64,000 nt of DNA from a virus. Below the pieces are notes generated by a model. It had not been told where the DNA came from, did not search any database, and saw only the letters and a program-made list of their open reading frames with translations. This document shows, in pieces, positions 6,585-52,393 of the stretch (its first letter is position 1; the number at the start of each line of letters is the position of its first letter). Both the position numbers and the translations under genes were made by a program. The stretch is from IMG/VR virus record IMGVR_UViG_3300043444_000523, positions 32,001 to 96,000 of that record, one strand, 5' to 3'.

Positions 6585-7682
6585 TTAGATCGGGCTCAGA
6601 ATGTTCTGAATCAGCCAGCCAGAGGCTGGGGCAGCAAGCACTTCCTGAATTTCTTCCGTGACGTAGCCGCGTGTCATGCGGTTCTCAGGATCATCGAACG
6701 TCTCAAGTTCGATTTCCTTGCCGTAGTAGTACAATTGCAAGGTCGAGAAGTTGGACGAACTTGCCATTCCGTCCAAGCCTCCGATTCGAGATAGAACAAT
6801 GGCCGAACTGTCATCCTTGATAAACCGGCGTCCAGGGACAGCGCCAGTCACCGAGGCCTCAGAACCGATTGCGGCCGATGCGGAATCACGTTCGGTCACA
6901 ATGCTGGCGTCTTCGACCAGAATGTCCCAGCCATAAAGCTGATCCGGCAGACCCCACTGAGAATTCTGCCCAGGCTCACGACCCTTCACCTGTGCCATCG
7001 CAAATGGCGATTCACGCAAGTAATCATGAATTTCAGGAGACCGGCTGACTCGAAGGGCCGCATTCGGGCTCAACATCAAACGCAACAGACCCTTGTTTCG
7101 GAAGTTCACTGCGCCGTTGGTGTACAAGTTGATCCGAGCGCCAACGGTATCCAGCGTGCTCTTGATCGCAAGGTAGTTGCCGCTGCCAGGATCAGACGAG
7201 GACAAATCCCAGAACCCGCGACCGCCGTTCAAAGAGTTGGCCGTCGCCGTGTTATTGCCCCAGCCGCTTGTCGTCTCAAGCAACGTAATTGCTCGCTGAG
7301 TTCTGGCCGTCATAAGTCGGCTTCGTGCTTGCATGGACTCCACATCGAGAACCTTGATGTCGGCTTGTTCGATGAGCTTCCAGTCAAGGACGAACTTCTC
7401 AAATCGCCGTTCGGTCTGGAACTCAACGGTATCGAACTTCGCACCGTTGAAGTCGCCGATGTCTCGGCGCATTCCGCCTTTCCAGACGTTTTCCTTGTCG
7501 TTCACAGAGCGAACGAACGAATCCACGCCGATCCTGTAATAGAGACCGACCGTTTTCTTGGTCTCAATCAGCTGGGCGTAGTCATTCAACAGGAAGTTCT
7601 TGGGGTCGCGGGCAAACATAATTGCTTGCCCGGTCGCTTCTGGAACAAAGGCGTTGAATTCACCGAAAAAGTTCAAGGCCAC
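6585..7682 (-). CDS. Major capsid protein (HK97 fold)
   Basis: 365 aa, AAGGAG RBS, C-terminal VLAAPASGWLIQNI, follows scaffold and decoration genes. Confidence 0.85.
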   Translation of the reverse strand: MALNFFGEFNAFVPEATGQAIMFARDPKNFLLNDYAQLIETKKTVGLYYRIGVDSFVRSVNDKENVWKGGMRRDIGDFNGAKFDTVEFQTERRFEKFVLDWKLIEQADIKVLDVESMQARSRLMTARTQRAITLLETTSGWGNNTATANSLNGGRGFWDLSSSDPGSGNYLAIKSTLDTVGARINLYTNGAVNFRNKGLLRLMLSPNAALRVSRSPEIHDYLRESPFAMAQVKGREPGQNSQWGLPDQLYGWDILVEDASIVTERDSASAAIGSEASVTGAVPGRRFIKDDSSAIVLSRIGGLDGMASSSNFSTLQLYYYGKEIELETFDDPENRMTRGYVTEEIQEVLAAPASGWLIQNILSPI

Positions 7683-15265: not shown

Positions 15266-15313
15266 ATCCTTTATAGGGGGATGCAATATGGCAACCGAAC
15301 GACGGATGATGTG

Positions 15314-19000: not shown

Positions 19001-20459
19001 GCGTTTGCGCCTTGAGCAACTCAATCTGCGTCTCTGTTTGAACCTTGGACTGAACCTTAAGCAACATCTCCTGGTTAAGAATTTCATCGTCAGGCTCAGG
19101 AGCCTTGAGGCCAGCGTTGGCCAAAAGCTCGTCTTTCCTGACAGAGCCGCCCATCTGAAACACCGCCGAAGCATTCTTCAACTTCGCATCGGCCTTTGGA
19201 TCATCAACATCAAATACAAATCTGACCCTGAAGTTGGCCTTGGGGAAATTCCATCGCTGAATTACAGGGATATAATCTTCAGAAAAAGTGTCGGCCAAAT
19301 TGTTTGCGTCAAACTTCAGGATGCGCCATTTAGTGTTCTCATGGAACTGAGATACTCCGCTGCCAAGTCCCGTTGCCTCTGCATTGGCGCTCAAAGTCTG
19401 GCCGATGATCAATCGCTCGATGTGCTGCTCAAAGTATTCCTTGACGATATTGATCAGGATGTTGATGCCGCCGCCTTCAAACCGAAGCAAATCAACACCG
19501 GCGGTATCCTTGCTCTGCCCACGGGTCTTCGGCATTGCGATGGCGTATCGTTCGCCGACGTTTTGGGCTGCGGCCTCGGCTTCTGCCTTGGAATTTGGAT
19601 TGCCTTCATCATAGTAGAACACCATGATGCCACCGATGCTCATCTTCTTCAGGTGGTTGATCGCCCACCCAAGCATCTCGTCACGAAGCTGGAAATTCCA
19701 GTAAATCTGAGACCGCAAGCCAACGCCATGCACGCCGCCTGACATCTCGCCTTCAAAGAAGTCGGCGTCAACGCACTGGTGTTTGTGGATGATGAACCGC
19801 TGCCGCCACTTCGGGTCTTTCAGCCGAAGCACCATCGACCTTTGATCCGAGAAAAGGTCTTCTTCCTTGACGATGCCGCGTTCTTTCAACGTCCGGCCAA
19901 TAGAGTGATTGACCATCACCCTTGGAACATCGTCATGGCCGTACAGGATTTTGTCGCCATTGACCGGCTTGTGCCCGACGACTCCAAGCCGATTCTGGCC
20001 ATCAATCGGAATCGCGCCCCACTTGACCTGATTCGCGTATCGGCCATACCAGATCGCCCAAGCCAGCTGCCAAACGAACGGCGTCCACCGCGACGTATTG
20101 GCCACGATCTTCGACATATCATCAGTTACGGCCTTTTGAATCTTGCTCTTTTGGTTCTCAGGCTCAAGATGCCAGCCAAGAGCCGAAAGCTGAAGGAATC
20201 TCTCGTTCATGCATCCCAAAACGAACGCATCACGAAGCATCGCCAGCGCGTTTTCGCGGCTGTGCTTCGTGGCCTCGTCATGAGTCCATCGATGAGACCG
20301 AGTTACGGATTGATAAATTGATGAGAATGTTCTGTGCTGCGGCAACAGAAAGCCGCCCTCGTCTTCGATGGGTCGGCCATTGTGATCAAGCAGCCGAAGC
20401 GGTCCACTCCCGTTTCGGCTCATCAGGCCATTAACGTCTGGTTCTGGTAGCAGTGCCAT
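16020..20459 (-). CDS. Portal protein (DUF935-like) with long C-terminal extension ending in a zincin metallopeptidase domain
   Basis: Portal-like core to ~aa 460 (IIGQTLS...GLGSGVSQFHE...DA.NLA.T), Q-rich linker, C-terminal HEIGH...SSYA...HEGWAE. Confidence 0.8.
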   Translation of the reverse strand: MALLPEPDVNGLMSRNGSGPLRLLDHNGRPIEDEGGFLLPQHRTFSSIYQSVTRSHRWTHDEATKHSRENALAMLRDAFVLGCMNERFLQLSALGWHLEPENQKSKIQKAVTDDMSKIVANTSRWTPFVWQLAWAIWYGRYANQVKWGAIPIDGQNRLGVVGHKPVNGDKILYGHDDVPRVMVNHSIGRTLKERGIVKEEDLFSDQRSMVLRLKDPKWRQRFIIHKHQCVDADFFEGEMSGGVHGVGLRSQIYWNFQLRDEMLGWAINHLKKMSIGGIMVFYYDEGNPNSKAEAEAAAQNVGERYAIAMPKTRGQSKDTAGVDLLRFEGGGINILINIVKEYFEQHIERLIIGQTLSANAEATGLGSGVSQFHENTKWRILKFDANNLADTFSEDYIPVIQRWNFPKANFRVRFVFDVDDPKADAKLKNASAVFQMGGSVRKDELLANAGLKAPEPDDEILNQEMLLKVQSKVQTETQIELLKAQTQIQMEAQQAQMQQQMQAQQQQAAAQQQMQVPAEGQPQEMPQDQEAQVQQQGQEQAAEQQQAEQQEQQAQEQAAQEQQEQQVQRDEQVAEEASDMTVDQILEEIMGEENTDETEDGNYIRLADGTSVPLDPAPPEEGGQVSMANDGLVIEYLAVSDDEFTIEYKATRAPVGGIDISGKHYEGGQFIPGSVIARASPEEKAALAGQKAISGEKVPEMPASRPQDHGKKPETQQTGMDRSEKQEDKPATVDDMLEQAGIRAPKPDEPILMGNEYDLIQETERWLKTDFKLRPYVMNKIKEFGSLTPHEYARARGRAYQREREVTATGEDTVATMALRIIDQYSGNRSKAFDKKQSLRGVPKAAHETAKYAGKIAERMIRDPKKLRRDIAKSPLAQGAFDKTAISLGIDPNETKLVIDPVTGKSSRVPNEKDALKRLALRAATQATMDLAVLGIKKGVMLIPKLFDVLMKKKGGSLVTSQDDEWMVGYQDEVPASAVMHEYLVELFKGKMQEAMKEAGIEATEEDLVSEASEAAERYAPLMLSMSGIDGEKPMPESKPTEDLRAHIKNVAKNVAGDALVHLLNKPSSDSHSEGAVSLWIRDKIKNRIRRSGIQVSEVALEELANAEASALAPAVARALESYSQKSAQIAPIMNQAIGYEAVHAPKGGIEVGGEHFKGGEFIPKEAIARASSSEKAALSPGKRSSVVRKEKVPGMTHGHSVVTARAVNFLKGAFGSAATAGALVFVRNMALGDSVEHALVVAGKSAVASAAVGGVIAAFARPPVSENPNRWIKGNIISANPKNSNDLVSAIHSSIDKDKDIPNGLKSEFKSGIVKTISSMNPKMKGSLLKNLRHVKFYPTSKRLSEDISKSTATDNDGRVGGAVEVGSGGMFLDGAPSIKHEGKLADTRMSSVYAHEIGHIIDGKLGDLSYSSDFDWKKAWVIEILHEDEKKAPLSSYAMSNAHEGWAEYVRLAITKPNVAKAKFPKCWAVLKKNNLV

Positions 20460-24111: not shown

Positions 24112-25185
24112 TTAGCCCGCGACTTTTGGGGCCGGTTTACTGACGGCCCAAGCCCTCAAATTGAGGGCAGCGTTTCGGTCGGCATTTGTGGAGTGCCCGC
24201 AATGTTTGCAGACAAACTCAGACTGGCTCTTTCGGTTGGCACGCTCGCAGTGGCCGCAGACATGGCACGTCTGGGAACTGTATCGCGGGTCAACCAAGAC
24301 TACGGACACGCCTGCCCGTCGGGCCTTGTACTCCACAAACTGCCGAAGCTGAAAGAAACTCCAGTTGCCAAGTCGTCGCCGGAAACGCCTAGAAGCCGTT
24401 TGCTCACAACGGTCACGCAAACCGGAGAGGTTCTCCAGAGCGATACCGATGCCGAGTGTCTTGGCTTTGCCGACAAGACTCTTGCTGATGGCGTGGTTTA
24501 CCCATGCTTGATAGCGGGACTGCCGCCCCGCCATCCGCTTCAACCGTCGCTTGGCAGACTTGGTTCCTTTCCGTTGGTACTGCTTACGGGCTGTCATCCG
24601 GCGCTTGCGGTTTCGTTCGACACCCGCACCGGAGAACGATTCCCCGGTGGAGTCGGTAGCAATCTGGACAATGCCAAAGTCACAACCCAAGTATTCGGTA
24701 ACCGGCTGTGGGTCGGAAACGGTCGCCTTGACTTGAACATGCAGAAAGTAACCGCCATCGCGTTTGACAAGTGCAGCGCTGGTCGGAACCTTCCCCGCAA
24801 GCGCGGTTCGCTGAAAGTCGCCAAGTTGGGTCGTCAGTCGATGCCGCCCATGCAACAGGGTCAGGCTGAAAGTCCAGTCGGATTCTCGGAAGGAAAAGAT
24901 TCGAGCATCGTAGTTCACGCTCGTAGGAGCAAATCGGGAGAGGTCTTTTACGGCGGCAACGCGACCGATGGCACGAACGGCCAGATTCGCCGACAGCCCG
25001 AACGCAGTCCGCGTTTCGCGGTAGGCCAATTTGTGCAGAGCGAGATGTCCTTTAGTCTCTGTCTCTGCCGCACGACGAACCAAGTGATTGCACGCCGCAG
25101 CGAAAGCCACAAGTGTAACGTCGATTTCAACCGCCTGTTCAGCGGTCGGAACCAGCTTGCAACAGATGGTACGGATGGCTTCCAT
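24112..25185 (-). CDS. tnpB: RNA-guided endonuclease TnpB
   Basis: RuvC D (LGCDFG), E (IALENL), Zn finger (CHVC...CKHC), D (NADRNAA). Confidence 0.92.
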   Translation of the reverse strand: MEAIRTICCKLVPTAEQAVEIDVTLVAFAAACNHLVRRAAETETKGHLALHKLAYRETRTAFGLSANLAVRAIGRVAAVKDLSRFAPTSVNYDARIFSFRESDWTFSLTLLHGRHRLTTQLGDFQRTALAGKVPTSAALVKRDGGYFLHVQVKATVSDPQPVTEYLGCDFGIVQIATDSTGESFSGAGVERNRKRRMTARKQYQRKGTKSAKRRLKRMAGRQSRYQAWVNHAISKSLVGKAKTLGIGIALENLSGLRDRCEQTASRRFRRRLGNWSFFQLRQFVEYKARRAGVSVVLVDPRYSSQTCHVCGHCERANRKSQSEFVCKHCGHSTNADRNAALNLRAWAVSKPAPKVAG

Positions 25186-25578
25186 TCAGACACCCTTCTG
25201 GTTCTCGATGTACTGCTTGATAACGGCCAGAGGCGCGCCGCCAACAGTCGCGACAAAGTAGGAGTTCGTCCAGAGCGATGGCAACCGGCTACGCAACGCT
25301 GGGTACTCCGTGCGCAGGAACCGGGACGAACGGCCCTTGACCAACTTTATCAGCCGGTGGATTCCGAACTGTGGATCGACTTCAACGAGCAGATGTACGT
25401 GATCGGGCATCACTTCCATCTCGATCAGTTCCGAACGGGTTTCAAGGATCACTTCCCGAATCAGATTCTTGAGCCGTTCATCAACGCCGTCGATCAAGAC
25501 CTTGCGACGATACTTGGGGCAGAAAACAACGTGGTACTTGCAGCAGTAGGACACGTTGTTATTGCTCTTGAGCCTCAT
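25186..25578 (-). CDS. tnpA: IS200-type Y1 HUH transposase TnpA
   Basis: YHVVFCPKYRR, DHVHLL (HUH), LWTNSYF, YIENQ. Confidence 0.95.
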   Translation of the reverse strand: MRLKSNNNVSYCCKYHVVFCPKYRRKVLIDGVDERLKNLIREVILETRSELIEMEVMPDHVHLLVEVDPQFGIHRLIKLVKGRSSRFLRTEYPALRSRLPSLWTNSYFVATVGGAPLAVIKQYIENQKGV

Positions 25579-25684
25579 TCCTGTATTATACACGTCCGAG
25601 ATGTCGAATGCCACCTCAGTAGCGTGGATTCGCCGTCTCCATTCCTCCCCATGCCTGAAGGCAGGGGTTTCTTGGAGACATTTC

Positions 25685-25780
25685 ATGAACAGCAAAGCCA
25701 AATTTTGGTTTGTGTTCGCTATTGTGTCTTCATGCTTTTGTGCGTTCTTATTCTCAATCTACTCATGGAAAGTCTGGTAG
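25685..25780 (+). CDS. Small hydrophobic peptide (31 aa) at the IS insertion site
   Basis: MNSKAKFWFVFAIVSSCFCAFLFSIYSWKVW; GGAG RBS present with and without the IS. Confidence 0.4.
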   Translation: MNSKAKFWFVFAIVSSCFCAFLFSIYSWKVW

Positions 25781-25795
25781 TGGCTCAACATGGTG

Positions 25796-25823
25796 TTGAC
25801 AACCTGGACGACCCTGATAGAGT
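25796..25823 (+). promoter_or_regulatory. Sigma-70-like promoter for the second tnpB (probably leaderless)
   Basis: TTGACA-N16-TAGAGT, GTG 7 nt downstream. Confidence 0.55.
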
Positions 25824-25830
25824 TATCCTT

Positions 25831-27006
25831 GTGCTGAAAACGATTACCTATCGTCTGTACCCGTCGCGGGAGCAGGAATCTTTCCTGTTCTACTTCCTCT
25901 ACATTGGCCGCAAGATTTACAACGACGCACTTGCCGAGCGCGTCCGGTTCTACAAAGACACTGGCAAAAGCCTGACTAAATTCACGCAACAGATGGACCT
26001 GACGATACGCAGGTCAATTAGCCCGGTGCTTGCCTCTGTCCCTGTCTGGATTGAGCGAGACTCCCTGTCTAGGATAGACAAGGCATTCGCCAATTTCTTC
26101 CGCAGAGTAAATGAAGGGAGTGCCAAGCCTGGGTTCCCGCGATTCAAGTCAGCCAATCGCTGGAACAGTTTCTCAATGCCTATCCAAGGCAGTGGCAAGA
26201 AACTGGTGCAAGGAAATAGAATCCGCGTGGCCGGGATTGAAGGAACAATGCCAAGCCGTGGCGGGCAACAAATACTTGGAAAGATCATTGTCCAGAGAAT
26301 TGTTCATCGAGCAGGCAAGTGGTTCTGCAAGTTCGTAGTTGATGACAAACTCGACCCACCGCCTATTCATCCTGTAAAGTCGGCTATCGGCGTCGATGTT
26401 GGTCTGAAATCGTTTGCAACGCTTAGCAACGGTTCAACGATTGAGAATCCACGATTCTATCGGGGACTGGAACTCAAGCGTGCCCATCGCAACGTGTCTC
26501 GTAAAATCAAAGGCAGTCGGAACCGATGGAGAGCCGTTCGTCGTCTTCAATCGGTTTATGAGAAAGTCAGAAACTTACGCCACAATTTTACGCATCACGA
26601 GAGCAAGAGGATTGTCAATGACCACCAACTGATTGTTGTCGAAAAACTGAACATAGCTGGCATGGCCAGAAGCCGATTTGCCAAAAGTATCTTGGACGCT
26701 GCATGGGGTCGGTTCATATTTCAATTGCGTTACAAAGCTGAAAACGCTGGTTGCGCATTCGTTGAAGTTGACCCCCGTGGCACAAGCCAAGATTGCAGCA
26801 AGTGCGGCCAGACCGTGCCAAAGAAGTTGTCGGATCGTGTCCATAAATGCTCTTGCGGTCTCGTGCTAGACCGCGACCATAATGCGGCGTTGAACATCCT
26901 TCAGCGTGCCGTTCGATCAGCACCCGGCCCCGGTAGGTGGATCGGTAAAGCGTGTGGAGAGGCTACGAAGACTCGGCGAAACACGAAGGCTTCAACACCA
27001 TGTTGA
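25831..27006 (+). CDS. tnpB: Orphan TnpB-family RNA-guided nuclease
   Basis: N-terminal YRLYP, PGFPRFKS, RuvC D (IGVDVG), E (VVEKL), Zn finger, D (DRDHNAA); the 937-aa ORF-track call is an artefactual extension. Confidence 0.88.
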   Translation: MLKTITYRLYPSREQESFLFYFLYIGRKIYNDALAERVRFYKDTGKSLTKFTQQMDLTIRRSISPVLASVPVWIERDSLSRIDKAFANFFRRVNEGSAKPGFPRFKSANRWNSFSMPIQGSGKKLVQGNRIRVAGIEGTMPSRGGQQILGKIIVQRIVHRAGKWFCKFVVDDKLDPPPIHPVKSAIGVDVGLKSFATLSNGSTIENPRFYRGLELKRAHRNVSRKIKGSRNRWRAVRRLQSVYEKVRNLRHNFTHHESKRIVNDHQLIVVEKLNIAGMARSRFAKSILDAAWGRFIFQLRYKAENAGCAFVEVDPRGTSQDCSKCGQTVPKKLSDRVHKCSCGLVLDRDHNAALNILQRAVRSAPGPGRWIGKACGEATKTRRNTKASTPC

Positions 27007-29350: not shown

Positions 29351-31156
29351 ATGTTAAGTGCCTCCGAACTCGCCGAACTTGAAGCCTATCTCCCGCACGC
29401 CAATGAAGATGAACGTCGGAAGATCAACGAGTATCTAGTCTCCATCCGCAAGGTGGAGAACAACTTCCCTTGGGCCGCATACCGATACGATCCAATCGGC
29501 TATGCGTACAACGTCCTTGGCCTCACGTTCCTTTCCGACGATCAGAAGATTGCACTGCGAGCGGCTGTAACGCCTCCGTACCGAGTGCAAATTGACGCCG
29601 GAAACGCTGTTGGCAAAAGCCTAACCTGCGCCGTCTTGGCCTCATGGTTCTACGACTCATATGACCCAGGCTGCGTTTTCACTACGGCCCCGACGCACGA
29701 TCACGTTGTCCGCGTGCTCTGGGCGCAAATACGCTCGCTTAGGTCCAATGCCAAGATGAAGCTACCGATGGACTTCATCGGGCCAGCTGCACCTGAGATG
29801 CGATCATCGGAATATCACTTTGCAAAAGGCCTGACCGCCTCGAAAGGAGAGGCGCTCAAAGGTTCTCACTTGCAGAATATGTGCTTCATATTCGACGAGT
29901 CTGAAGCATTGCCGGTGATGTACTGGGAATCTGTTCGCACGATGTTTAAGCCGCAGCCGGGTATGCTGTGGCTATCCGTGGGCAACCCGACAACCACCAG
30001 CAGCGCTGCATTCCTTGAGTCCACTCGCACGGATGAGAACAAGAAGCCGTTCTGGCGCAACCTGCGCATGAGTGTGCTCAATCACCCAAACATCATAGCT
30101 GGTCTCCAAGGGCTTCCGCCGCCAATCCCAAACGCCGTCGATGTCGGCATGGTGGATGACTGGGTGCGACGACTATGCACGCCTCTCGATGAAAAAGAAG
30201 AAAAAAAAGCCACTGACTTCCAGTGGCGAGGAAGATGGTATCGGCCAAGCGGTGAAGCCGAGACGGTCATTCTCGGCTGTCGCCCGTCAACAGGAGCATC
30301 CGGCGTTTGGTCAGACTCGCTCTGGGAAGCCTGTTGCCATCTCGATTTGCCGTTCCCAATCGATCAACCACCCGAACTTGGCTGTGACGTGGCCAGAGTC
30401 CTTGGTGGCGATGATTGCGACATTCACGCACAATGGGGCGGCAACTCTCTCGCCCATGACTCTGCCAATGGCCGCTCTATACCAGCTACCATCGCTCGTC
30501 TCAAAGAGATGGCCGAAGAAGTATGCGAGTTTGCCAACGCCAAGAGAAAGGAACTTGTGGCCACTGGCAAATACTCACCCGAAGAACTCTCCAGGGCTCA
30601 AATCCACAAGCCGTGGGTTCCCAAAGAAATACCTGTCAAGATCGACGATTGCGGCATCGGCAACGTCATCACCGACTTTGCAGACGGCTGGAACTTCATC
30701 CCAGTCAACCCAGGCTGGGCTGCAAAGCAAGACCTACGTTATCCCAACGTCCGAAGCGAGCTGTGGTTTGAGACCCAGGAGAAGGCCATACTGTTCGGCC
30801 TCAGCATGAAGCACCTGTCTGAAGATGATCAGCAGATGCTGCGTATCCAATCCTTTGCGCCAAAGTGGGAGTTGGATGCTAGACGCCGACGAGTTGTTGA
30901 GAGCAAAGAGGACACAAAGAAACGACTTGGCCGCTCGCCAGACGGCATGGACGCATTCAATCTTGCCCACTTCCATGCCAACTTTGGCGTGGCCTCATTG
31001 GCAGGCATCGAAACCGGAGTATCACGAACAGACCAGACGATGGGCGCACGAATCGGCATCGGCGGCAGGGGACAGAGGGGCTCGCCTGCGAGTGTTCCAG
31101 ACGAGCCGCCTAGAAGAGACGAGAACAAAGTTACTCTGTGGGGGAGGCGGAAATAG
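29351..31156 (+). CDS. terL: Terminase large subunit
   Basis: Walker A (AGNAVGKS), Walker B (FIFDE), coupling motif VGNP, nuclease LGCDVAR...SPDGMDA. Confidence 0.93.
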   Translation: MLSASELAELEAYLPHANEDERRKINEYLVSIRKVENNFPWAAYRYDPIGYAYNVLGLTFLSDDQKIALRAAVTPPYRVQIDAGNAVGKSLTCAVLASWFYDSYDPGCVFTTAPTHDHVVRVLWAQIRSLRSNAKMKLPMDFIGPAAPEMRSSEYHFAKGLTASKGEALKGSHLQNMCFIFDESEALPVMYWESVRTMFKPQPGMLWLSVGNPTTTSSAAFLESTRTDENKKPFWRNLRMSVLNHPNIIAGLQGLPPPIPNAVDVGMVDDWVRRLCTPLDEKEEKKATDFQWRGRWYRPSGEAETVILGCRPSTGASGVWSDSLWEACCHLDLPFPIDQPPELGCDVARVLGGDDCDIHAQWGGNSLAHDSANGRSIPATIARLKEMAEEVCEFANAKRKELVATGKYSPEELSRAQIHKPWVPKEIPVKIDDCGIGNVITDFADGWNFIPVNPGWAAKQDLRYPNVRSELWFETQEKAILFGLSMKHLSEDDQQMLRIQSFAPKWELDARRRRVVESKEDTKKRLGRSPDGMDAFNLAHFHANFGVASLAGIETGVSRTDQTMGARIGIGGRGQRGSPASVPDEPPRRDENKVTLWGRRK

Positions 31157-36172: not shown

Positions 36173-36919
36173 TCAACAAACAATCCTGCCAATGTTCCGA
36201 AACAGCCGATCATCGGCCTTGCGTTCGCGCTCTACGACTCTGTACAGGTGATCCACAAGCGGCTTGAACTCACGCATCTTGGCCAATGACTTGGCCTCGA
36301 TCTGCCGGACCCGCTCTTTGCTGATCCCAAGGTCATTGCCGATGTCCTCAAGGGTTTCTCCACCAACGAATCGCCGGACGATGATGCTGTAATACCGCTT
36401 GTCGAGGCAGAACGACATGAGGGCCTTGGTCTCTGGCGCAAGGTCTTCTGGAACTTCCTCATACTCTGGCCGATCAACAAAATCAAGCTGGTTGGCATCC
36501 CTGAACCTGGAGGATGCTTTGATCTGATTTTCGACCACTGACATTGGCAGTACGTGGATTCTCTTGATCCACTCGTGTTCTTTTGTTGCCCCGATTCTGG
36601 TTGTTGCTTTACCAGCGGCCTTATGGATGCAGTTCTTGATCCAGTGGAACGAATATGTTCCCTTTGAGGCTCCGTGAGACGGATCGTACCGGACAAGGGC
36701 CTCGCACATGCCCAAGACACCGGCCTGAATGAAGTCATCGAGCCAGTTGAGGTACAGTTGGCCTTGTTCGTGGATGTTTGTCATTGCGGCCAGGATGTAG
36801 GCGCACCTTCGGGCCTCCTTGTAGACAAGTTGCATGTTGGCCATCACCCATTCCTGATCTTCTTTGTCAAGCCTTGACTTTGGCTCTTTGGATTGGACAA
36901 TTCCTTCTGCCGATAACAT
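36173..36919 (-). CDS. Phage sigma-70-family RNA polymerase sigma factor
   Basis: Region 2 (DFIQAGVLG...YDP....TY..WI) and region 4 (TLEDIG..LGISKERVRQIE). Confidence 0.9.
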   Translation of the reverse strand: MLSAEGIVQSKEPKSRLDKEDQEWVMANMQLVYKEARRCAYILAAMTNIHEQGQLYLNWLDDFIQAGVLGMCEALVRYDPSHGASKGTYSFHWIKNCIHKAAGKATTRIGATKEHEWIKRIHVLPMSVVENQIKASSRFRDANQLDFVDRPEYEEVPEDLAPETKALMSFCLDKRYYSIIVRRFVGGETLEDIGNDLGISKERVRQIEAKSLAKMREFKPLVDHLYRVVERERKADDRLFRNIGRIVC

Positions 36920-38337: not shown

Positions 38338-38519
38338 GAGACTTTGCCTTTCTGATCAAGCCTGTGAAACAATGCAAGACACGCCAACCCGACCACTTCA
38401 GGAGCACCATGCTTCTTGTAGTTGGCCACAGTGTTCCTATGCAGGCCAAGCAATGAAGCTGCCTCACCGTCGCCTATGCCCATCGAGAGCATCCACTTTA
38501 CAAAGTCTTCGGCACTCAT
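38325..38519 (-). CDS. Small HTH DNA-binding protein
   Basis: EAASLLGLHRNTVANYK. Confidence 0.7.
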   Translation of the reverse strand: MSAEDFVKWMLSMGIGDGEAASLLGLHRNTVANYKKHGAPEVVGLACLALFHRLDQKGKVSWQT

Positions 38520-38575
38520 TTGCACAATTTTAGTGCATTTTGCGGCGGTGGACATCACAAATTTTGTGCATTCGG

Positions 38576-38857
38576 CTAGTTGCGGTCGTCATGGTCTGTT
38601 TCGCCTCTGAAGTGCTCTCCAAGTCCGGCAGACGACGCTTGGCCATGAACGGCATGGATTTCCTCGAATTTCTGGTAAAAACTCCCTGGTTGCCCAGGCA
38701 GGTTGCTGCCGGTGCAGGCATAATCGTGGTCGCTCGCATGTGGGCAACGCTTGTTGCCGCACGTCGGACACCTTGGCATTTGCCGCTCAAGCAGGTTCGG
38801 CGTTCTCTCATGAACACACCGGACACACATGCAATCAAGAAGGTCAGACATGGCCAT
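38576..38857 (-). CDS. Small Cys/His-rich phage protein
   Basis: CMCVRC...CPTCGNKRCPHASDH...CTGSN.PGQPGS. Confidence 0.6.
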   Translation of the reverse strand: MAMSDLLDCMCVRCVHERTPNLLERQMPRCPTCGNKRCPHASDHDYACTGSNLPGQPGSFYQKFEEIHAVHGQASSAGLGEHFRGETDHDDRN

Positions 38858-39530
38858 TGCTCCCGTTCGTAGATAGCCCGTGTGCAACACCATTTAGCGT
38901 AGGACGCACGATCTCGGCTTCAGGTAGCGGAATAGCGACTCTGGACTTAATATCGGCCAGTAGGGCCAATAGACCGGCTTTGTGGGTGTCTACTTCGGCG
39001 AGTGACAAGCCGCCAGAGGTCAGGTCGATTTTCTGGGCCGGACGTTGGTTGTCTGGCATGATGGCATACTTGTCCTCGATGGCCGACAGATGGGGGTGCG
39101 GATCACGGAGTTTGTAAGTGACTTCGCCGTCTTTGGTTATGGTGATACCGGCGATCATACGCCGGGCTTCTCGTGGTATCTCGTGTATGGGTTTGGACTT
39201 GCCGTTTTCGTCGAATAGATCGGCTGGGTCTTGGTACGCTATTTGTTGCCGGATTTTCCTTGTGCGCTTGTATTCTATGGCCATTTGGGCGGCTTCGTGG
39301 TCCTTGACGTGCTGCTGGACTTCTTTGAGGTACGCGGCCACATCTGGACGTTTGAGTAGTGAGTAGGCTCGCTGTTGCGCTTGCTTGTCGGTTTGGGCGG
39401 TGAAGCCAGCTTGCTTGTAGGCGCGGGCTCTGTTGCCGGTGGCGATGTAGATGTGGACGAAGTTGGCGTATCGCCCCCTGAGAGTGTTGAACTTCTTGGG
39501 CTTGATCGGGTTTGGTTCTCGTTCAGACAT
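38844..39530 (-). CDS. terS: Terminase small subunit
   Basis: FV..Y...GN...AY..AGF...AY.LL..P.V..YL HTH, IAY.DP.DLFDE.G. Confidence 0.85.
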   Translation of the reverse strand: MSEREPNPIKPKKFNTLRGRYANFVHIYIATGNRARAYKQAGFTAQTDKQAQQRAYSLLKRPDVAAYLKEVQQHVKDHEAAQMAIEYKRTRKIRQQIAYQDPADLFDENGKSKPIHEIPREARRMIAGITITKDGEVTYKLRDPHPHLSAIEDKYAIMPDNQRPAQKIDLTSGGLSLAEVDTHKAGLLALLADIKSRVAIPLPEAEIVRPTLNGVAHGLSTNGSNGHV

Positions 39531-39539
39531 GGTGATGAC

Positions 39540-41045
39540 CTACTGTTTGGCCTCTTGGGTGTTCACTTGAACATGCGGCTTGGCCTGCTCGATGATTTGG
39601 CAGACATCGGCTTCATAGAATTGGGCAGACATCTCGACACTGGCCGTGACAACGCTCGGCTTGGCCATGTCACAGATGATGGAGAGCTTGGTTACGCCTT
39701 TGGGGTTGATGCCGAGTGTTTTACAGAGCATTTGTCCGAATACGGATGATACGTTGAATTTCGCCTTGGGCTCATTTTTTGCTGGAGTCGCAAACGGGTC
39801 TTTGATCATGATAGGACTGCCGCAGCCATCCTCAAAAGAAATAAAAGAGTGCTCGCTTTTTAAAACAACGACTTTCACCCCGTAAACAAAGTCTGTTAGG
39901 CCATACTTGGCGTTTGTACTTTCAAAGAACTTCTCTCCCCAGTAGTTCCTTACATAGTCTCTGATCTCGTGCGTCCTTGACAGATCGAGCGCTGTCATCT
40001 CGCCGCCTATTATCATCAATATGCCTTCACTTGTTGGCCTTCTGAAATGCCTTGCAACATATCCAAGAGAGTTGTTTATTGCCATGAATCCAGGCGATCT
40101 AGGGTCAGCGCTGGCATGTGGCCAACCACTTACCATCCTTAGAAAATCTCCGTGTAAAATTTCAGTTGACTCTTCTTTCTGACTGAGCGAGCGGAATGGG
40201 TCTTTGATTACGGCATTTTTGACATCGCCGTTAGTCATTTTGGCACAAATCAAAATGCCGTCCACCTTCCCTTTATCTTTTTTGATAATTATCTCTAATC
40301 CGTACAAGAAGTGCGGTAGCCCCCATGCGGAGTTTGGCCAGACGTATTTGGCACCGTTGACCCGTGGCTGGTCTCCGACATACGTGGTGCGAATGTGTTC
40401 TCTCACTTCGTCTGTTTTTGAAAGAAGGCCAGCAGTTCTCTGGTCAATCTTCATAGAGACCTGCACAGGCGTCTCGCCGTTTGTAATAGAGGCGATGGCA
40501 ATGTGAAGCGTTCTTTTGATTTCCAAGTAGTGCGGCGAATTAGGATCAGCATTTGCCTGCGTCCAGTCAAATGATAGTTCTGGAGTTTCATCGAATGCTT
40601 TTACTTGTCCAAGCATCCTCAAGATTTCCTTGCGAATAATATCGGCGCTCAGCCCCTCTGCTTGCAGAGCCTCAGAAGCAAGACCTTCTGGCTCACGGAT
40701 AAGGCCAAGCAATAAGTGCTCAGTCCCCACATAGTTGTGATTGAGGCTTCTGGCTTCCTCAATCGAGCATTCGATCACTTTTTTCACAAGAGGAGTATGC
40801 GAAAGTCTCCCCATCATCGCCGTCTCCAACTTTGGGCCGGTTTGGGCAATTGCTTCCACTCTCGTTTCGATCTTTCGGAGATCGATGTCGAGGTTTTTCA
40901 AGACATTGGCAGCTACTCCTGATCCTTCCTTGACCAGCCCCAGCAAAATGTGCTCGGTGCCGATGTACTCGTGGCTTAGACGTTGGGCCTCTTGGTTGGC
41001 CAGCTGCATCACCTTGCGAACCCTGTCGGTAAATCGTTCATACAT
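39540..41045 (-). CDS. ClpC N-terminal (double Clp-N) domain fused to two major-capsid-like repeats
   Basis: MYERFTDR...HEYIGTEHILLGL and HNYVGTEHLLLGL; no AAA module; aa 159-284 and 307-418 align with capsid aa 157-290. Confidence 0.85.
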   Translation of the reverse strand: MYERFTDRVRKVMQLANQEAQRLSHEYIGTEHILLGLVKEGSGVAANVLKNLDIDLRKIETRVEAIAQTGPKLETAMMGRLSHTPLVKKVIECSIEEARSLNHNYVGTEHLLLGLIREPEGLASEALQAEGLSADIIRKEILRMLGQVKAFDETPELSFDWTQANADPNSPHYLEIKRTLHIAIASITNGETPVQVSMKIDQRTAGLLSKTDEVREHIRTTYVGDQPRVNGAKYVWPNSAWGLPHFLYGLEIIIKKDKGKVDGILICAKMTNGDVKNAVIKDPFRSLSQKEESTEILHGDFLRMVSGWPHASADPRSPGFMAINNSLGYVARHFRRPTSEGILMIIGGEMTALDLSRTHEIRDYVRNYWGEKFFESTNAKYGLTDFVYGVKVVVLKSEHSFISFEDGCGSPIMIKDPFATPAKNEPKAKFNVSSVFGQMLCKTLGINPKGVTKLSIICDMAKPSVVTASVEMSAQFYEADVCQIIEQAKPHVQVNTQEAKQ

Positions 41046-41642
41046 GATTTCCTAGTCCTTTCGTTGCAAAGAGGTCTATCTCATGGCTTGTCCGCTTCTT
41101 GCTTGTTGTCATCATTCTTGATGCCAAGCCGACGTTCGGCCCAGCGCAACAATGCGTATACCACGCCTGCCACTGGAACGCCCAGAGACTTTACCACTTC
41201 GTCCTGGTCGATCTTGCTGGCGAGAATCCAGAGCGGCGCAACACATATGACGCCGACAACGCCTATCTGAACCGTGGGCCAGAAGTGTTTATGTTGGTAG
41301 AATTTAATAGTGGCTTACCTCAGTGTTGATAGCCGATGCGTTTCATCGAGCCTGCTTCCGTTTCCAGAAGTCTTACTGGCTCTCCGCGCCCGCGCCTAAA
41401 AGCACGGCCACGAACTATCATAGCCGCAGCAACATCCCGGTTACAGGATAATCCGCACCATTTGCACGAGTTCCGATCACCTAGTTCGGTGTGGCGGTCC
41501 AGATTGCGACTATTCCGCCATGCCAACGCAAGGTAAAGGAGGCGGTCCATGTTGGACCTGAGAAGAGCCGCTTATTGACAACGGCTGTCTCTGTTTTCGC
41601 CCGGCCAGTGTTAGCGCACCGACCGGGCTATTGAAGCGGCAA

Positions 41643-41714
41643 GCCCACGTAGCCTAATGGAAAGGCACCCTGTTCGTACCGGGAGCTATGTGGGTTCAAA
41701 TCCTGCCGTGGGCA
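41643..41714 (+). tRNA. tRNA-Thr(CGT)
   Basis: Cloverleaf: GCCCACG/CGTGGGC, D-stem GCCT/AGGC, loop TT-CGT-AC, T-loop TTCAAAT; CCA not encoded; one anticodon-stem mismatch. Confidence 0.8.
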
Positions 41715-41779
41715 GTTTTCAAACCGTGCGCAGACCGTGCGCGCTTCACTACATAGCATAAGGACGCGAAGCGGTGCAT

Positions 41780-42028
41780 TCAACTCAAAAACGCTACTGT
41801 CTTGCCCCGATCTTCCAATTCTTCCCGCGCGGACCGCCGTAGCCGATCTCGCATCCACTCGGATAGCTTCTTGCCGTCTTGCTCCGCAGCATCGACAAAC
41901 GCCTGTTTTTCGGCGATACCGACGCCGCCGATTGCCCGCAACTTCCGGCACTTGTCGCCAAGACGGCAGATAACTTCAAGATAGGTGAAGTGTCAGCAGA
42001 CAAGGCTTACCTGTCGGTCGAAAAAAGG
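41780..42028. pseudogene. Remnant of a DDE IS element: transposase fragment (+, 41915-42028) abutting an RHH-like fragment (-, 41780-41912)
   Basis: DCPQLPALVAKTADNFKIGEVSADKAYLSVE; EKQAFVDAAEQDGKKLSEWMRDRLRRSAREEL. Confidence 0.6.
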
Positions 42029-42067
42029 CACACGTGGCGATCTCCCACGGTGCAATGAGCGCCTTGG

Positions 42068-42310
42068 CTAGTCTTCGAGGCGTTCAAGCCATCCGGGTCG
42101 GCATATTGCTGTAACGCAAGTACCGGCCCCGGCTTCTTCCCCGTTTCGGTCGAAGATGATTTCGCGGTTCCCAAATGGCAAATCACCGTATACGCGAAAA
42201 CGTAACATCCCGTTCGGGTCAACTTCAAATTGAAAAGCTAAACCTGATGCCTGGTCTTCAACTATCTGTTCTTTGATCGTCCATGATTTGGCGTCGGTTT
42301 TCAACGACAT
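42068..42310 (-). CDS. Hypothetical protein
   Basis: GGAGG RBS. Confidence 0.55.
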   Translation of the reverse strand: MSLKTDAKSWTIKEQIVEDQASGLAFQFEVDPNGMLRFRVYGDLPFGNREIIFDRNGEEAGAGTCVTAICRPGWLERLED

Positions 42311-42488
42311 GATATTCCTCCGATTGCGGCCAATAATCTGAATTCGCAGTTCTTCAGGCTGTCAACGTACAGCATCACGCGGCACATCTGGCGGCGCATG
42401 CTATCCGGCATCGTCGGCATTCCTTTTGCGCACCTGACAATCTCTTCCCACCACAGTTCAAACACGCAATCGCCTGATTTCATTTATT

Positions 42489-42938
42489 TCACCGGAAGAT
42501 GAACACGATGTCTTTCCGCCCGCCCTCGCCCGGCTCGCACTCCGGGAACCGATACACCGGGATCGCCAGCGGCATCTGGCCGCGATAGTACGAACGCGGC
42601 CCCAACGCCCATCGAAACTCGACTAGCTTGCGCTCGAATGCTTCCCATGTCGTTGGCGGCAGCACGTTTGGTTTACCGTGGCTGAGCTTCCAGCGCCATT
42701 CCTGCAACGTCGCCAGTTCGCGCCATAGGTACGCTCGATAGCAAGCATCGCATTCCCACTCGCAGTCATGCCGATGAACCGGATGCTCTTTGAGCCAGCC
42801 TACATGCTGTTCGGCTGCGGTTGCGCATCGTTGGGCATGTCCAAGGTTCGGCAGGAATACAAGATCATCTGGATGGACGGGCAGGCACAGCATTGCCACG
42901 ACTTCCATCATGCCTCGATCCCCATTGCCTTGACGCAT
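42489..42938 (-). CDS. Hypothetical protein
   Basis: ORF in operon; start uncertain. Confidence 0.45.
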   Translation of the reverse strand: MRQGNGDRGMMEVVAMLCLPVHPDDLVFLPNLGHAQRCATAAEQHVGWLKEHPVHRHDCEWECDACYRAYLWRELATLQEWRWKLSHGKPNVLPPTTWEAFERKLVEFRWALGPRSYYRGQMPLAIPVYRFPECEPGEGGRKDIVFIFR

Positions 42939-46642: not shown

Positions 46643-46717
46643 GGGATCGGGCGGGCACGGTGACACGCGAAAGCATCTGCAGTGCTTTACAACCCGGTTC
46701 GACTCCGGGCGATCCAT
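46643..46717 (+). tRNA. Degenerate tRNA-like element (Cys- or Ala-like loop)
   Basis: T-arm CCCGG-TTCGACT-CCGGG, acceptor GGATCG/CGATCC, stem AAAGCA/TGCTTT with loop TCTGCAG. Confidence 0.45.
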
Positions 46718-46753
46718 CTTCCGGCTCACTACTGGACTACAGGAGACAACACT

Positions 46754-51419: not shown

Positions 51420-52393
51420 AACGACTCGAAGCCGAATTCAAACGTCGTATGGGGTGGACCACTTTGCGCGGCCAGACGCGCAAGTTTGTCCTTGAGGATA
51501 TTGAGACTCTTGGCCTTGATGGCGCAGTGCGCTCATGGCGCAACGAGGGGCTCAAGATGCCCTACGGCATCCAGAAGTTGATTGACTCAACGATCCATCT
51601 TACCAGCACTGGGCCGTTGGGTATTCAGGGAGTAGGCTGGTAATTGGCCGATCTTTTCTTAATGGAGTACGTCCATGCGCAAATTCCATGCCGTCATTCG
51701 ACGGCACAAGAAGGGTTTCATGTGGCTGGTTGTATCGTCTTGTGGCCGCTACTTGCGCGGCTACTGCGCCTCTGCTGCCATTGGGCAGCGGCGAGTTGAG
51801 GCGTCTATTGCCTGCTTCAGCGAGTGCCCGTGCTGCGCTAAGTCTTAGCATTTGCGCCACTACTGCGCCGATGTTCGGCCTAGTAGCGGCGCGTTCATTC
51901 CGGGAGTATGATATGTTCGAGTTGCCGCGTGTTGTCCGCTTGCGCCGTGCACAATCTGGAGTACGGGCACGACCTTTGCCGTGCAATCGGCCTCTGTTGA
52001 GGCCGAATCAGAAGCCTAACAAGGTCTTCGTGGCCTTGTTCTCGAAATAGGCGCGAGTTGCGCCTATTATTGCGGTGTACTTGTATATCTCAGGTTTCCT
52101 GCCGACATGGCGGCAGGGAGAAATAGAACCAGGAGATTCGCCAGCCAATTGCGTCCACTGAGAGACGCCCAACCGATATGGCGATTAACCCAAGGGTGCG
52201 TATGAAGAAGTTCTACCTCTTTTCCATTTACTAGACGACGAAGATCGACGACGGTAAGGCCGGGGGTCGAAAGACTCCCGGCACGTTGGGGATACCGCAG
52301 GGCGGGCTTGTGGTTTGCAACCACGATGGCAGGATTCGAGTCCCTGTGTCTCCACTACATCTCTGCCAATCCACTTACCTTCAAGGGGACGTA

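What the first reader, a model, noticed from the sequence alone, without database searches (positions are those of the whole stretch)
39540..41045. ClpC N-domain fused to two tandem copies of a major-capsid domain
Seen: aa 1-146 are a double Clp-N domain with no AAA motor. Two ~110-125-aa repeats follow, both ending IKDPF. They align by eye with this phage's capsid aa ~157-290: capsid FWDLSSSDPGSGNYLAIKSTL...VSRSPEIHDYLR...NSQWGLPDQLYGWDILV; repeat 1 FDWTQANADPNSPHYLEIKRTL...LSKTDEVREHIR...NSAWGLPHFLYGLEIII; repeat 2 GWPHASADPRSPGFMAINNSL...LSRTHEIRDYVR...NAKYGLTDFVYGVKVVV. The repeat region looks more AT-rich than its flanks, and the gene sits directly upstream of terS, far from the head genes. 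Known: Clp-N domains bind adaptors and tagged substrates, and some anti-phage systems sense capsid protein. Inference: a non-assembling capsid mimic joined to a protease-recognition module. It could be a decoy for capsid-sensing defence, a shield against Clp degradation of capsid, or an inhibitor of competing phage assembly. I know of no described protein with this architecture.
Basis: partly seen in the sequence, partly recalled or inferred. Interest (0 to 1): 0.88.

Follow-up and report, generated by a model that had tools for sequence, protein, structure and literature searches.

The report
ClpC docking head fused to capsid pieces
A roughly 105-kb phage, probably of planctomycete bacteria, has one intact gene that joins a motor-less copy of the host ClpC protease's docking head to two diverged copies of one domain of the phage's own shell protein. 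No other protein found has this design, and its function is not known.

Summary
ORF 39540-41045(-) encodes 501 aa.

- **N-terminal domain (aa 1-146):** a complete ClpC-type N-terminal domain (NTD) with no AAA+ motor. Pfam Clp_N scores E 7e-32 and solved ClpC/ClpC1 NTDs score E about 1e-40. It is 74-75% identical to planctomycete ClpC.
- **Two tandem repeats (about aa 158-284 and 307-418):** they match each other (E 2e-11) and residues 156-257 of the 365-aa ORF at 6585-7682(-) (BLASTP 4e-9 and 6e-8; hhalign 97%).
- **The 365-aa ORF:** its model folds as an HK97 major capsid protein. The matched part follows the spine helix, where the A-domain lies.
- **Architecture:** a singleton. An exhaustive HMMER search found no other protein with these repeats apart from capsids.
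- **Motor-less ClpC NTD proteins are not rare.** One capsid-related phage and 20 other IMG/VR contigs carry them with unrelated tails. Planctomycete chromosomes hold multi-NTD proteins.
- **Host pathway:** five of five planctomycete genomes tested have a McsB-type arginine kinase and none has MecA.

Best reading (about 0.4): a phage ClpC-NTD decoy acting on the host phospho-arginine/ClpC pathway. The capsid-derived module would target it to capsid protein or multimerise it. The function is inferred and was not tested.

It is a new variant of a known kind, of moderate to high interest. The scan had also noted this stretch in an overlapping window.

The parts
39540..41045 (-). Whole gene, 501 aa (P0002): ClpC NTD, A-domain repeat 1, linker, A-domain repeat 2, C-terminal tail
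   Evidence: The ORF is listed and translated. It is a singleton in the protein collections.
40608..41045 (-). ClpC-type N-terminal domain, aa 1-146. Two Clp repeats, both GTEH motifs, no AAA+ module follows.
   Evidence: Pfam Clp_N E 7.1e-32; phrog_35667 E 7.5e-39. Solved ClpC1/ClpC NTDs score E 2.5e-40. It is 74% identical to planctomycete ClpC, with aa 1-59 identical at 56 of 59 positions.
40194..40574 (-). Capsid A-domain repeat 1, about aa 158-284, ending in IKDPF
   Evidence: BLASTP to capsid aa 158-257, E 4e-9. hhalign to the capsid-family profile, prob 97.1%, E 5e-11. It keeps 11 of the 17 most conserved capsid columns.
40128..40193 (-). Linker between the repeats, aa 285-306; the most AT-rich piece (about 37% GC)
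39792..40127 (-). Capsid A-domain repeat 2, about aa 307-418, ending in IKDPF
   Evidence: BLASTP to the capsid, E 6e-8. hhalign prob 96.9%, E 1.7e-10. Against repeat 1, E 2e-11. It keeps 9 of the 17 most conserved capsid columns.
39543..39791 (-). C-terminal tail, aa 419-501, with no detectable relatives
   Evidence: No Pfam or PHROG match. No real hit in the exhaustive search; the two long repetitive proteins that scored are spurious. It is unlike the tails of other viral NTD proteins.
38844..39530 (-). Small terminase subunit gene. It starts 9 bp after the stop of the fusion gene, on the same strand.
   Evidence: phrog_51 E 1.7e-13 plus two further terS PHROGs; junction sequence
6585..7682 (-). 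Major capsid protein (P0001, 365 aa), the family from which the repeats derive. The matched region is aa 156-257; the likely A-domain is aa 156-298 (window 6789-7217).
   Evidence: AF2 pLDDT 83.7 with spine helix at 111-136. Foldseek hits to HK97-fold capsids down to E 2e-11. 68 homologues found. Portal and adaptor genes lie nearby.

Best explanation
The gene makes a motor-less mimic of the host ClpC N-terminal domain. It most likely acts, late in infection, on the host phospho-arginine (McsB) / ClpC-ClpP degradation pathway.

The NTD can bind whatever the host ClpC NTD binds, but it cannot unfold or degrade anything. Its likely ligands are phospho-arginine-tagged proteins, McsB-type partners, or ClpC's own M-domain. 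It would therefore work by competition or sequestration, as mycobacterial ClpC2 does.

The two capsid A-domain copies are the variable tail of this protein class. Here they would either hold the decoy on capsid protein or capsomers, shielding newly made shell protein, or multimerise it, since A-domains pack side by side in capsomers.

**Shown:**
- the architecture;
- homology of both modules;
- strong constraint on the NTD;
- recurrence of motor-less NTDs in phages and hosts;
- presence of McsB-type kinases in the host phylum.

**Inferred:**
- ligand binding by the NTD;
- any contact between the repeats and capsid protein;
- timing of expression;
- benefit to the phage.
For: 1. **NTD identity.** The NTD matches true ClpC/ClpC1 NTDs (E about 1e-40) far better than ClpC2 decoys (E about 1e-13 to 1e-15). 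Its best 80 genome matches are nearly all titled Planctomycetota, at 68-75% identity.
2. **Purifying selection.** aa 1-59 are identical at 51-56 of 59 positions to ClpC of many planctomycetes. Third codon positions at identical residues agree in only 21-30 of about 50-54 codons. This points to selection on the ClpC surface and argues against a recent transfer.
3. **Binding residues kept.** Both GTEH motifs are kept, holding the Glu equivalent to E32/E106 of the two phospho-arginine pockets. So are T6, R8 and K88, the equivalents of T7, R9 and K85 (residue roles from PMC12583610). The equivalences come from my own alignment with ClpC.
4. **Host pathway.** Five of five planctomycete genomes have a PF00217 arginine-kinase homologue (E about 1e-70). 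Among 14 control genomes only B. subtilis rings. None of the five has MecA.
5. **Recurrence.**
   - A capsid-related phage (G001) has a 199-aa stand-alone NTD protein.
   - 20 of 21 IMG/VR contigs with NTD homologues encode 201-381-aa motor-less forms with unrelated tails. Pfam sees only Clp_N in the ten of these scanned.
   - Mycobacteriophages Myrna and Phabba also carry one.
   - Planctomycete chromosomes carry multi-NTD and NTD-fusion proteins.
6. **Precedents.** ClpC2 is an NTD sponge (PMC10030653). SPO1 Gp53 shows that phages manipulate ClpC through its NTD (PMC6873191).
7. **Repeats under constraint.** The repeats keep 11 and 9 of the 17 most conserved capsid A-domain columns, against about 28% of moderately conserved ones. 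The fold is therefore under constraint.
8. **Likely co-transcription.** The gene sits 9 bp upstream of terS on the same strand.
Against: - No binding was measured or predicted.
- The protein is a singleton with no orthologues, so selection on the repeats cannot be measured and the gene could be young or dispensable.
- The tails of two other viral NTD proteins have no paralogue in their own genomes. Fusion to a structural-protein piece is therefore not a general rule.
- Only 1 of 24 capsid-related viral records has any Clp_N gene.
- Nothing shows that ClpC or McsB attacks phage capsid proteins in any host. The literature search found nothing.
- The host is inferred only from NTD similarity.
- The fold of the repeats rests on sequence profiles; the only model of the whole protein was useless (pLDDT 34).
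Confidence: 0.4

Rival explanations
1. Capsid-assembly interference. The tandem A-domains slot into capsomers of a related, competing phage or of a satellite's helper. Because they lack the P-domain and E-loop, they cap or poison lattice growth. The NTD may hand the trapped subunits to host ClpC. This would be a superinfection-exclusion or competition weapon.
For: Capsid-protein homologues that redirect assembly exist: SaPIbov5 Ccm (PMC8569155, PMC5052747). Both repeats keep the fold-defining residues but have lost P206 and E257, which are 90-97% conserved in real capsids. The repeats are no closer to the phage's own capsid than to other family members, and their best match is P0071 from another contig. 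The low GC suggests an accessory gene.
Against: Ccm is a full-length capsid homologue, whereas this protein has A-domains only. The repeats share the 14-residue W..I loop and DP motif with the subgroup that holds the phage's own capsid, so self-poisoning would be a risk. The NTD has no known way of delivering cargo into ClpC. This reading does not explain why the NTD is so strongly conserved, or why other phages carry the NTD without capsid pieces.
Confidence: 0.15
2. Immune decoy. The A-domain copies mimic the capsid surface that a host capsid-sensing defence recognises, and soak up the sensor without triggering it.
For: Capsid proteins are known triggers of several defence systems (my own knowledge, not tested here). 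The module is a folded, non-assembling copy of an exposed capsid domain. The gene is accessory and specific to this lineage.
Against: No defence-related family matches (PADLOC none). A mimic of a trigger would be expected to activate a sensor, not block it. The reading gives the highly constrained ClpC NTD no role. At about 30% identity to the real capsid, the repeats are poor mimics of a specific epitope. No published capsid decoy was found.
Confidence: 0.12
3. The phage's own morphogenesis or virion protein: a chaperone-like assembly factor, or a minor shell or vertex component, that docks through A-domain-like contacts.
For: The gene lies at the head of the terS transcription unit. It is paralogous to the capsid protein. 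The NTD groove of ClpB/ClpC-type proteins binds unfolded chains (PMC12583610), which could serve capsid-protein folding.
Against: The gene is absent from all relatives with the same capsid family, including G002, which has a homologous terS. An essential assembly role is therefore unlikely. The gene is 32 kb from the head module.
Confidence: 0.1
4. No function: a young chimeric gene made by illegitimate recombination, or an assembly chimera.
For: It is a singleton seen only in one JGI assembly. Its GC is atypical. Read support could not be checked.
Against: A 501-codon frame stays open through four junctions. The two repeats are only 28% identical to each other and about 30% to the capsid, yet they keep the family's invariant residues. 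That implies long evolution under constraint. There is no DNA-level repeat that could mislead an assembler. The NTD is under clear purifying selection.
Confidence: 0.06

Closest known systems
N-terminal domain of ClpC / ClpC1 (B. subtilis, S. aureus, M. tuberculosis; e.g. PDB 3WDD, 6CN8, 5HBN)
   Same: Full double Clp repeat at E about 1e-40, with both GTEH motifs of the phospho-arginine pockets. It is 74-75% identical to planctomycete ClpC.
   Different: There is no AAA+ ring, M-domain or ClpP-binding part, so it cannot unfold or deliver substrates. It is encoded by a phage.
Mycobacterial ClpC2 (motor-less ClpC1-NTD paralogue, molecular sponge; PMC10030653; PDB 8AD9, 9P2P)
   Same: A ClpC NTD without a motor, joined to another domain. 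The proposed action is competition for NTD ligands.
   Different: ClpC2 is cellular. Its extra domain is an N-terminal dimerising, DNA-binding four-helix bundle. Its sequence match is much weaker (E 1e-13 to 1e-15). The phage protein puts the NTD first and carries capsid-derived domains.
Phage and planctomycete motor-less Clp_N proteins (phrog_35667; Myrna gp251; 20 IMG/VR contigs; G001 199-aa protein; chromosomal triple-NTD protein P0084)
   Same: The same NTD module, 39-66% identical in phages and 60-71% in host paralogues, followed by a non-ATPase tail.
   Different: Their tails are short, mutually unrelated and without known domains. Host forms instead carry further NTD copies or UVR, four-helix-bundle, Uma2 or HIT domains. 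None has a capsid-like part.
HK97-fold major capsid proteins, and capsid-protein homologues that redirect assembly (SaPIbov5 Ccm; PMC8569155)
   Same: The repeats are homologous to the A-domain region of an HK97-fold capsid family. Ccm shows that a capsid paralogue can have a role other than building the phage's own shell.
   Different: The repeats hold only about 100-130 residues of the fold, present twice in tandem. They lack the N-arm, E-loop, spine helix and P-domain and are fused to a host-derived domain. Ccm is a complete capsid protein.
SPO1 Gp53 (phage adaptor-like protein that binds the ClpC NTD; PMC6873191)
   Same: A phage factor aimed at the ClpC NTD interface.
   Different: Gp53 binds the NTD, whereas this protein is itself an NTD. 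There is no sequence relation.

Membership tests
Clp_N / ClpC N-terminal domain (PF02861) | Two tandem Clp repeats forming the roughly 145-aa pseudo-dimeric domain | tested here: met
   Pfam E 7.1e-32 with two stretches. Full-length alignment to solved ClpC1 NTD positions 1-143.
Clp_N / ClpC N-terminal domain (PF02861) | Phospho-arginine pocket residues (Glu of each GTEH motif, equivalent to E32/E106; T7) | tested here: met
   By sequence only. GTEH is present at aa 29-32 and 107-110, and T6 is kept. Residue roles are from PMC12583610. Binding itself was not tested.
ClpC / Hsp100 AAA+ unfoldase | AAA+ rings D1 and D2, M-domain, ClpP-docking loop | tested here: not met
   No AAA family in Pfam. 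NCBIfam Clp models match only their N-terminal positions, far below cut-off. In the alignment with 846-aa ClpC the similarity ends at aa 146.
ClpC2-type NTD sponge | Motor-less ClpC NTD that competes for NTD ligands | tested here: inconclusive
   The motor-less NTD is shown. Competition was not testable here.
ClpC2-type NTD sponge | N-terminal four-helix dimerisation/DNA-binding domain ahead of the NTD | tested here: not met
   The NTD starts at residue 1. ClpC2 matches only weakly (E 2.6e-15 to 4.8e-13).
HK97-fold major capsid protein | Complete fold: N-arm, E-loop, spine helix, P-domain and A-domain | tested here: not met
   Homology covers only capsid aa 156-257. In the capsid model the spine helix is at 111-136 and the P-domain strands at 315-359, outside the matched part.
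HK97-fold major capsid protein | A-domain fold in each repeat | tested here: inconclusive
   The sequence-profile match is strong (97%), and 9-11 of 17 conserved columns are kept. No usable 3-D model of the repeats exists. The A-domain label rests on position after the spine helix and on known HK97 topology.
Capsid-homologue assembly redirectors (Ccm type) | Full-length capsid homologue that co-assembles with the capsid protein | tested here: not met
   Only A-domain fragments are present. Co-assembly was not testable.
Known anti-phage defence proteins (PADLOC-DB) | Match to any defence-system model | tested here: not met
   No family at E<=0.01.

The most novel reading that the evidence does not exclude
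The capsid-derived tandem works as a capsomer mimic. One version has it dock on the phage's own or a rival's capsid protein, so that a host-type phospho-arginine reader sits on assembling shells. There it could shield them from the McsB/ClpC-ClpP system or mark rival subunits for it. The other version has it self-assemble into a capsomer-like ring that presents several ClpC NTDs as a high-avidity trap. Either would be the first case of a virus re-using a piece of its own HK97 shell protein as a targeting or scaffolding module for manipulating host proteolysis.
Probability: 0.2. Interest if true: 0.85.

Novelty: new variant of a known kind. Interest (0 to 1): 0.62.

Why it matters
Motor-less ClpC N-domains have one studied precedent: mycobacterial ClpC2, an antibiotic sponge. 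This work shows that they recur in phages that probably infect planctomycetes, and in planctomycete genomes, always with different tails. Their role in infection is unstudied.

This gene is the one case where the tail can be read: it is a duplicated piece of the phage's own capsid protein. That gives a concrete, testable link between capsid assembly and the host phospho-arginine/ClpC degradation pathway.

It is also a rare example of an HK97 A-domain existing outside a complete capsid protein. This bears on whether that domain can fold and act on its own.

Tried and rejected
- **Whole-protein model:** a single-sequence AlphaFold2 model gave pLDDT 34 and was unusable. The ESM Atlas look-alike search gave nothing above chance.
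- **Complex prediction:** capsid protein (alignment A1) with repeat 1 (alignment A4) returned 'no answer', score 0.00. This counts neither for nor against binding.
- **Capsid family profile against PDB sequences:** only chance hits. Capsid against the cultured-phage collection: no match.
- **Searches for the repeat region:**
  - The word-indexed search found only the gene itself.
  - The exhaustive HMMER search found the gene itself, one truncated capsid-family protein (P0071), and two long repetitive proteins whose matches are spurious.
- **Weak second 'capsid-like' hit in G003** (E 0.003): it lies in Arg-rich high-GC frames and was rejected as chance.
- **Tree of A-domains:** R1, R2 and P0071 join as long branches with weak support (70), so no donor lineage can be named.
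- **Is the C-terminal tail (aa 419-501) shared with other viral NTD proteins?** No.
- **Do other viral NTD tails copy a protein of their own genome?** No, in the two tested.
- **Independent support for the assembly:**
  - An exact 43-nt junction pattern found nothing in metagenome contigs, though the window's own record may be hidden.
- **Large terminase:** not found with Terminase_6N/6C. No ClpP is encoded in the phage.
- **Consensus promoter/terminator scan of 38500-42500:** not above the shuffled expectation.
- **The search for related loci:** the full capsid alignment was too divergent to search with, and the single capsid sequence found nothing. A 14-sequence alignment worked.
Full report
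**What is there**

The window is bases 32001-96000 of a 104,736-bp linear IMG/VR virus record rated 87% complete. ORF 39540-41045 on the minus strand encodes 501 aa.

Pfam finds two Clp_N stretches within aa 1-146 (E 7.1e-32) and nothing else. PHROGs gives phrog_35667, of unknown function (E 7.5e-39), over aa 1-146. No AAA+ module is present. In an alignment with 846-aa ClpC proteins the similarity stops at residue 146.

Two tandem repeats follow, at about aa 158-284 and 307-418. They align with each other at 28% identity (E 2e-11), and both end in IKDPF. An 83-aa tail with no relatives closes the protein.

**The capsid link is real**

- Both repeats align with aa 158-257 of the 365-aa ORF at 6585-7682(-), with BLASTP E 4e-9 and 6e-8.
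- A 42-sequence profile of that ORF's family matches repeat 1 (probability 97.1%, E 5e-11) and repeat 2 (96.9%, E 1.7e-10) over profile columns 162-260.
- A six-frame search of the whole record finds only the gene itself and this ORF.

The 365-aa ORF has no Pfam or PHROG match but has 68 homologues. Its AlphaFold2 model, built on the alignment, has pLDDT 83.7 and pTM 0.81. Foldseek returns at least 378 PDB matches at E<=1e-3. All listed ones are HK97-fold shell proteins, including HFTV1, P-SCSP1u, PhiTE, T5 and HK97 itself. The ORF sits between a Mu-type portal (PF06074, E 1.2e-35) and a Mu Gp36-type head-tail adaptor. It is therefore the major capsid protein.

In the model the long spine helix is at 111-136 and the terminal P-domain strands at 315-359. 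The matched stretch lies between them, where HK97 topology puts the A-domain. This domain label is my inference from topology. It is not a residue-by-residue structural alignment.

**State of the repeats**

- Across 110 capsid A-domain regions, 17 columns are at least 80% conserved. Repeat 1 keeps 11 and repeat 2 keeps 9, against 24 of 87 moderately conserved columns.
- Both have lost P206 and E257, which are 90% and 97% conserved in capsids.
- Both share the 14-residue spacing between W158 and I173, and the DP motif, with the subgroup that contains the phage's own capsid. That subgroup is 68 of 113 rows. The other subgroup has a 9-residue spacing.
- A tree places R1, R2 and a truncated capsid-family protein (P0071) together on long branches with weak support. 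They fall outside the well-supported clade of the phage's own capsid.

My reading is one old capture from this capsid subgroup, then tandem duplication and fast divergence with the fold retained. A donor cannot be named.

The gene is 48.3% GC against 52.9% for the genome. That is the lowest 1.2% of 1.5-kb windows.

**The N-terminal domain**

- It matches solved ClpC1/ClpC NTDs at E 2.5e-40 to 1e-38, and ClpC2-type decoys only at 1e-13 to 1e-15.
- It is 74-75% identical to full-length ClpC of Planctomycetes.
- The best 80 hits among 185,579 species genomes are nearly all titled Planctomycetota, at 68-75% identity, with Gemmata first; five carry uncultured Alcaligenaceae or Chitinophaga MAG titles. 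The host is therefore probably a planctomycete. This is an inference.
- Residues 1-59 are identical at 51-56 of 59 positions to ClpC of eleven diverse planctomycetes. Third codon positions at those identical residues agree in only 21-30 of about 50-54 codons. The similarity is therefore held by selection and is not due to recent transfer.
- Both GTEH motifs are kept. Their Glu corresponds to E32/E106, the two phospho-arginine pockets. T6, R8 and K88 are also kept. Residue roles come from PMC12583610, and the equivalences come from my own alignment.
- Five of five planctomycete genomes carry a PF00217 arginine-kinase homologue (E about 1e-70). Only B. subtilis rings among the 14 controls. None of the five has MecA.

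**How common is each part?**

The full architecture is unique.
- The word-indexed search of 5.8 billion clusters found only the protein itself.
- The exhaustive HMMER search of 1.84 billion representatives, run with aa 150-501, found the protein itself, P0071 and two spurious repetitive hits.
- The protein is on record from one JGI source only.

The motor-less NTD is not unique.
- The related 112-kb phage G001 (capsid 47% identical) has a 199-aa stand-alone NTD protein, next to a Dam-like methylase gene and a dCTP-deaminase-like gene. Those two gene labels are read by eye from the translations.
- 20 of 21 IMG/VR contigs with NTD homologues (49-66% identical) encode 201-381-aa forms with mutually unrelated tails. 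Pfam sees only Clp_N in the ten of these scanned.
- Mycobacteriophages Myrna and Phabba have one.
- Planctomycete chromosomes hold triple-NTD proteins such as P0084. They also hold NTDs fused to UVR, four-helix-bundle, Uma2 or HIT domains.

The gene is accessory.
- Only 1 of 24 viral records with the same capsid family has any Clp_N gene.
- G002, which has a homologous terS, has no such gene upstream of it.

**How it most likely works**

The constant, constrained part is a copy of the host ClpC docking head, and it has no motor. It can only bind.

The best-supported mechanism is competition for ClpC-NTD ligands: phospho-arginine-tagged proteins, McsB-type partners, or the ClpC M-domain that the NTD contacts in the resting state (PMC12583610). 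Precedents are the ClpC2 sponge (PMC10030653) and SPO1 Gp53, which shows that phages manipulate ClpC through its NTD (PMC6873191).

The capsid-derived tandem is this protein's version of the variable tail. It could place the decoy on capsid protein or capsomers, or it could multimerise it. Its position 9 bp upstream of terS suggests expression with the packaging genes. All of these steps are inferred. I give this reading 0.4.

The rivals are:
- a poison of rival capsid assembly (0.15);
- a decoy for a capsid-sensing defence (0.12);
- a morphogenesis or virion protein of the phage itself (0.10);
- a non-functional or chimeric gene (0.06).

The last is unlikely because the frame is open for 501 codons, the repeats are old yet keep invariant capsid residues, and the NTD is under selection. 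Read support could not be checked.

**Comparison and verdict**

The protein works like a ClpC2-type NTD decoy but is not a member of that family. It lacks the N-terminal dimerisation domain, and the sequence match is much weaker. It is not a ClpC ATPase, and it is not a capsid protein.

I file it as a new variant of the motor-less ClpC-NTD proteins, distinguished by a duplicated HK97 A-domain module. Notes from this scan on other genomes describe further phage NTD proteins: one stand-alone near a phage clpP, one fused to YodC/DUF2158, and one upstream of terL. They also describe a planctomycete four-NTD protein. I used these as leads only.

Interest is 0.62. The anatomy is solid and unusual, and the Clp link is testable. 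Against that, it is a singleton and its function is unproven.

Noticed in passing
window 24193-27006 (+): A 937-aa ORF whose C-terminal roughly 390 aa is a TnpB/IS605 OrfB-type module (HTH_OrfB_IS605, OrfB_IS605, Cas12f1-like TNB; E 1e-8 to 1e-23). It is preceded by about 540 aa with no Pfam match. It lies in a plus-strand block that separates terS from the portal gene.
   Followed up: no
window 16020-20459 (-) and 10844-15286 (-): Two giant head-module ORFs of 1479 and 1480 aa. The first has a Mu-type portal domain only in aa 73-447, leaving about 1000 further residues unassigned. The second has only a weak match to a tail-associated lysin PHROG.
   Followed up: no
window 36173-36919 (-): A phage-encoded sigma-70-family factor (regions 2 and 4; phrog_351 E 6e-25) lies 2 kb downstream of terS on the same strand.
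   Followed up: no
window 41643-41714, 46643-46718, 52288-52355 (+): Three tRNA genes: Thr-CGT and two Ala-TGC. The Thr gene sits on the opposite strand in the roughly 1-kb gene-poor gap just upstream of the fusion gene.
   Followed up: no
whole record G000: No large terminase was found with Terminase_6N or Terminase_6C. terS is not followed by a terL-sized gene, here or in the relative G002. The 601-aa ORF at 29351-31156(+) matches only phrog_5902, of unknown function.
   Followed up: partly
protein P0071 (Logan contig, 26 kb; no locus fetched): A 242-aa shortened member of the same capsid family. It keeps the A-domain region and a C-terminal strand but has a different, short N-terminus. It is the closest single relative of the repeats (E 8e-15). 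This may be another degenerate or re-used capsid derivative.
   Followed up: partly
proteins P0081-P0150; P0084 on a 6.9-Mb contig: Planctomycete chromosomes encode many motor-less proteins with two to four ClpC NTD modules, or one NTD fused to UVR, four-helix-bundle (PF05635), Uma2 endonuclease or HIT domains. P0084 is three NTDs in a row.
   Followed up: partly
L062:1336-1935 (-) in G001: The related 112-kb phage carries its stand-alone 199-aa NTD protein among nucleotide-metabolism and methylase genes (Dam-like methylase, dCTP-deaminase-like, both labels read by eye from the translations). It is not next to terS.
   Followed up: partly
window 15100-15900: This is the other lowest-GC stretch of the record (about 47.5%). 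It covers the ParB-like gene 15314-16018 between the two giant ORFs.
   Followed up: no
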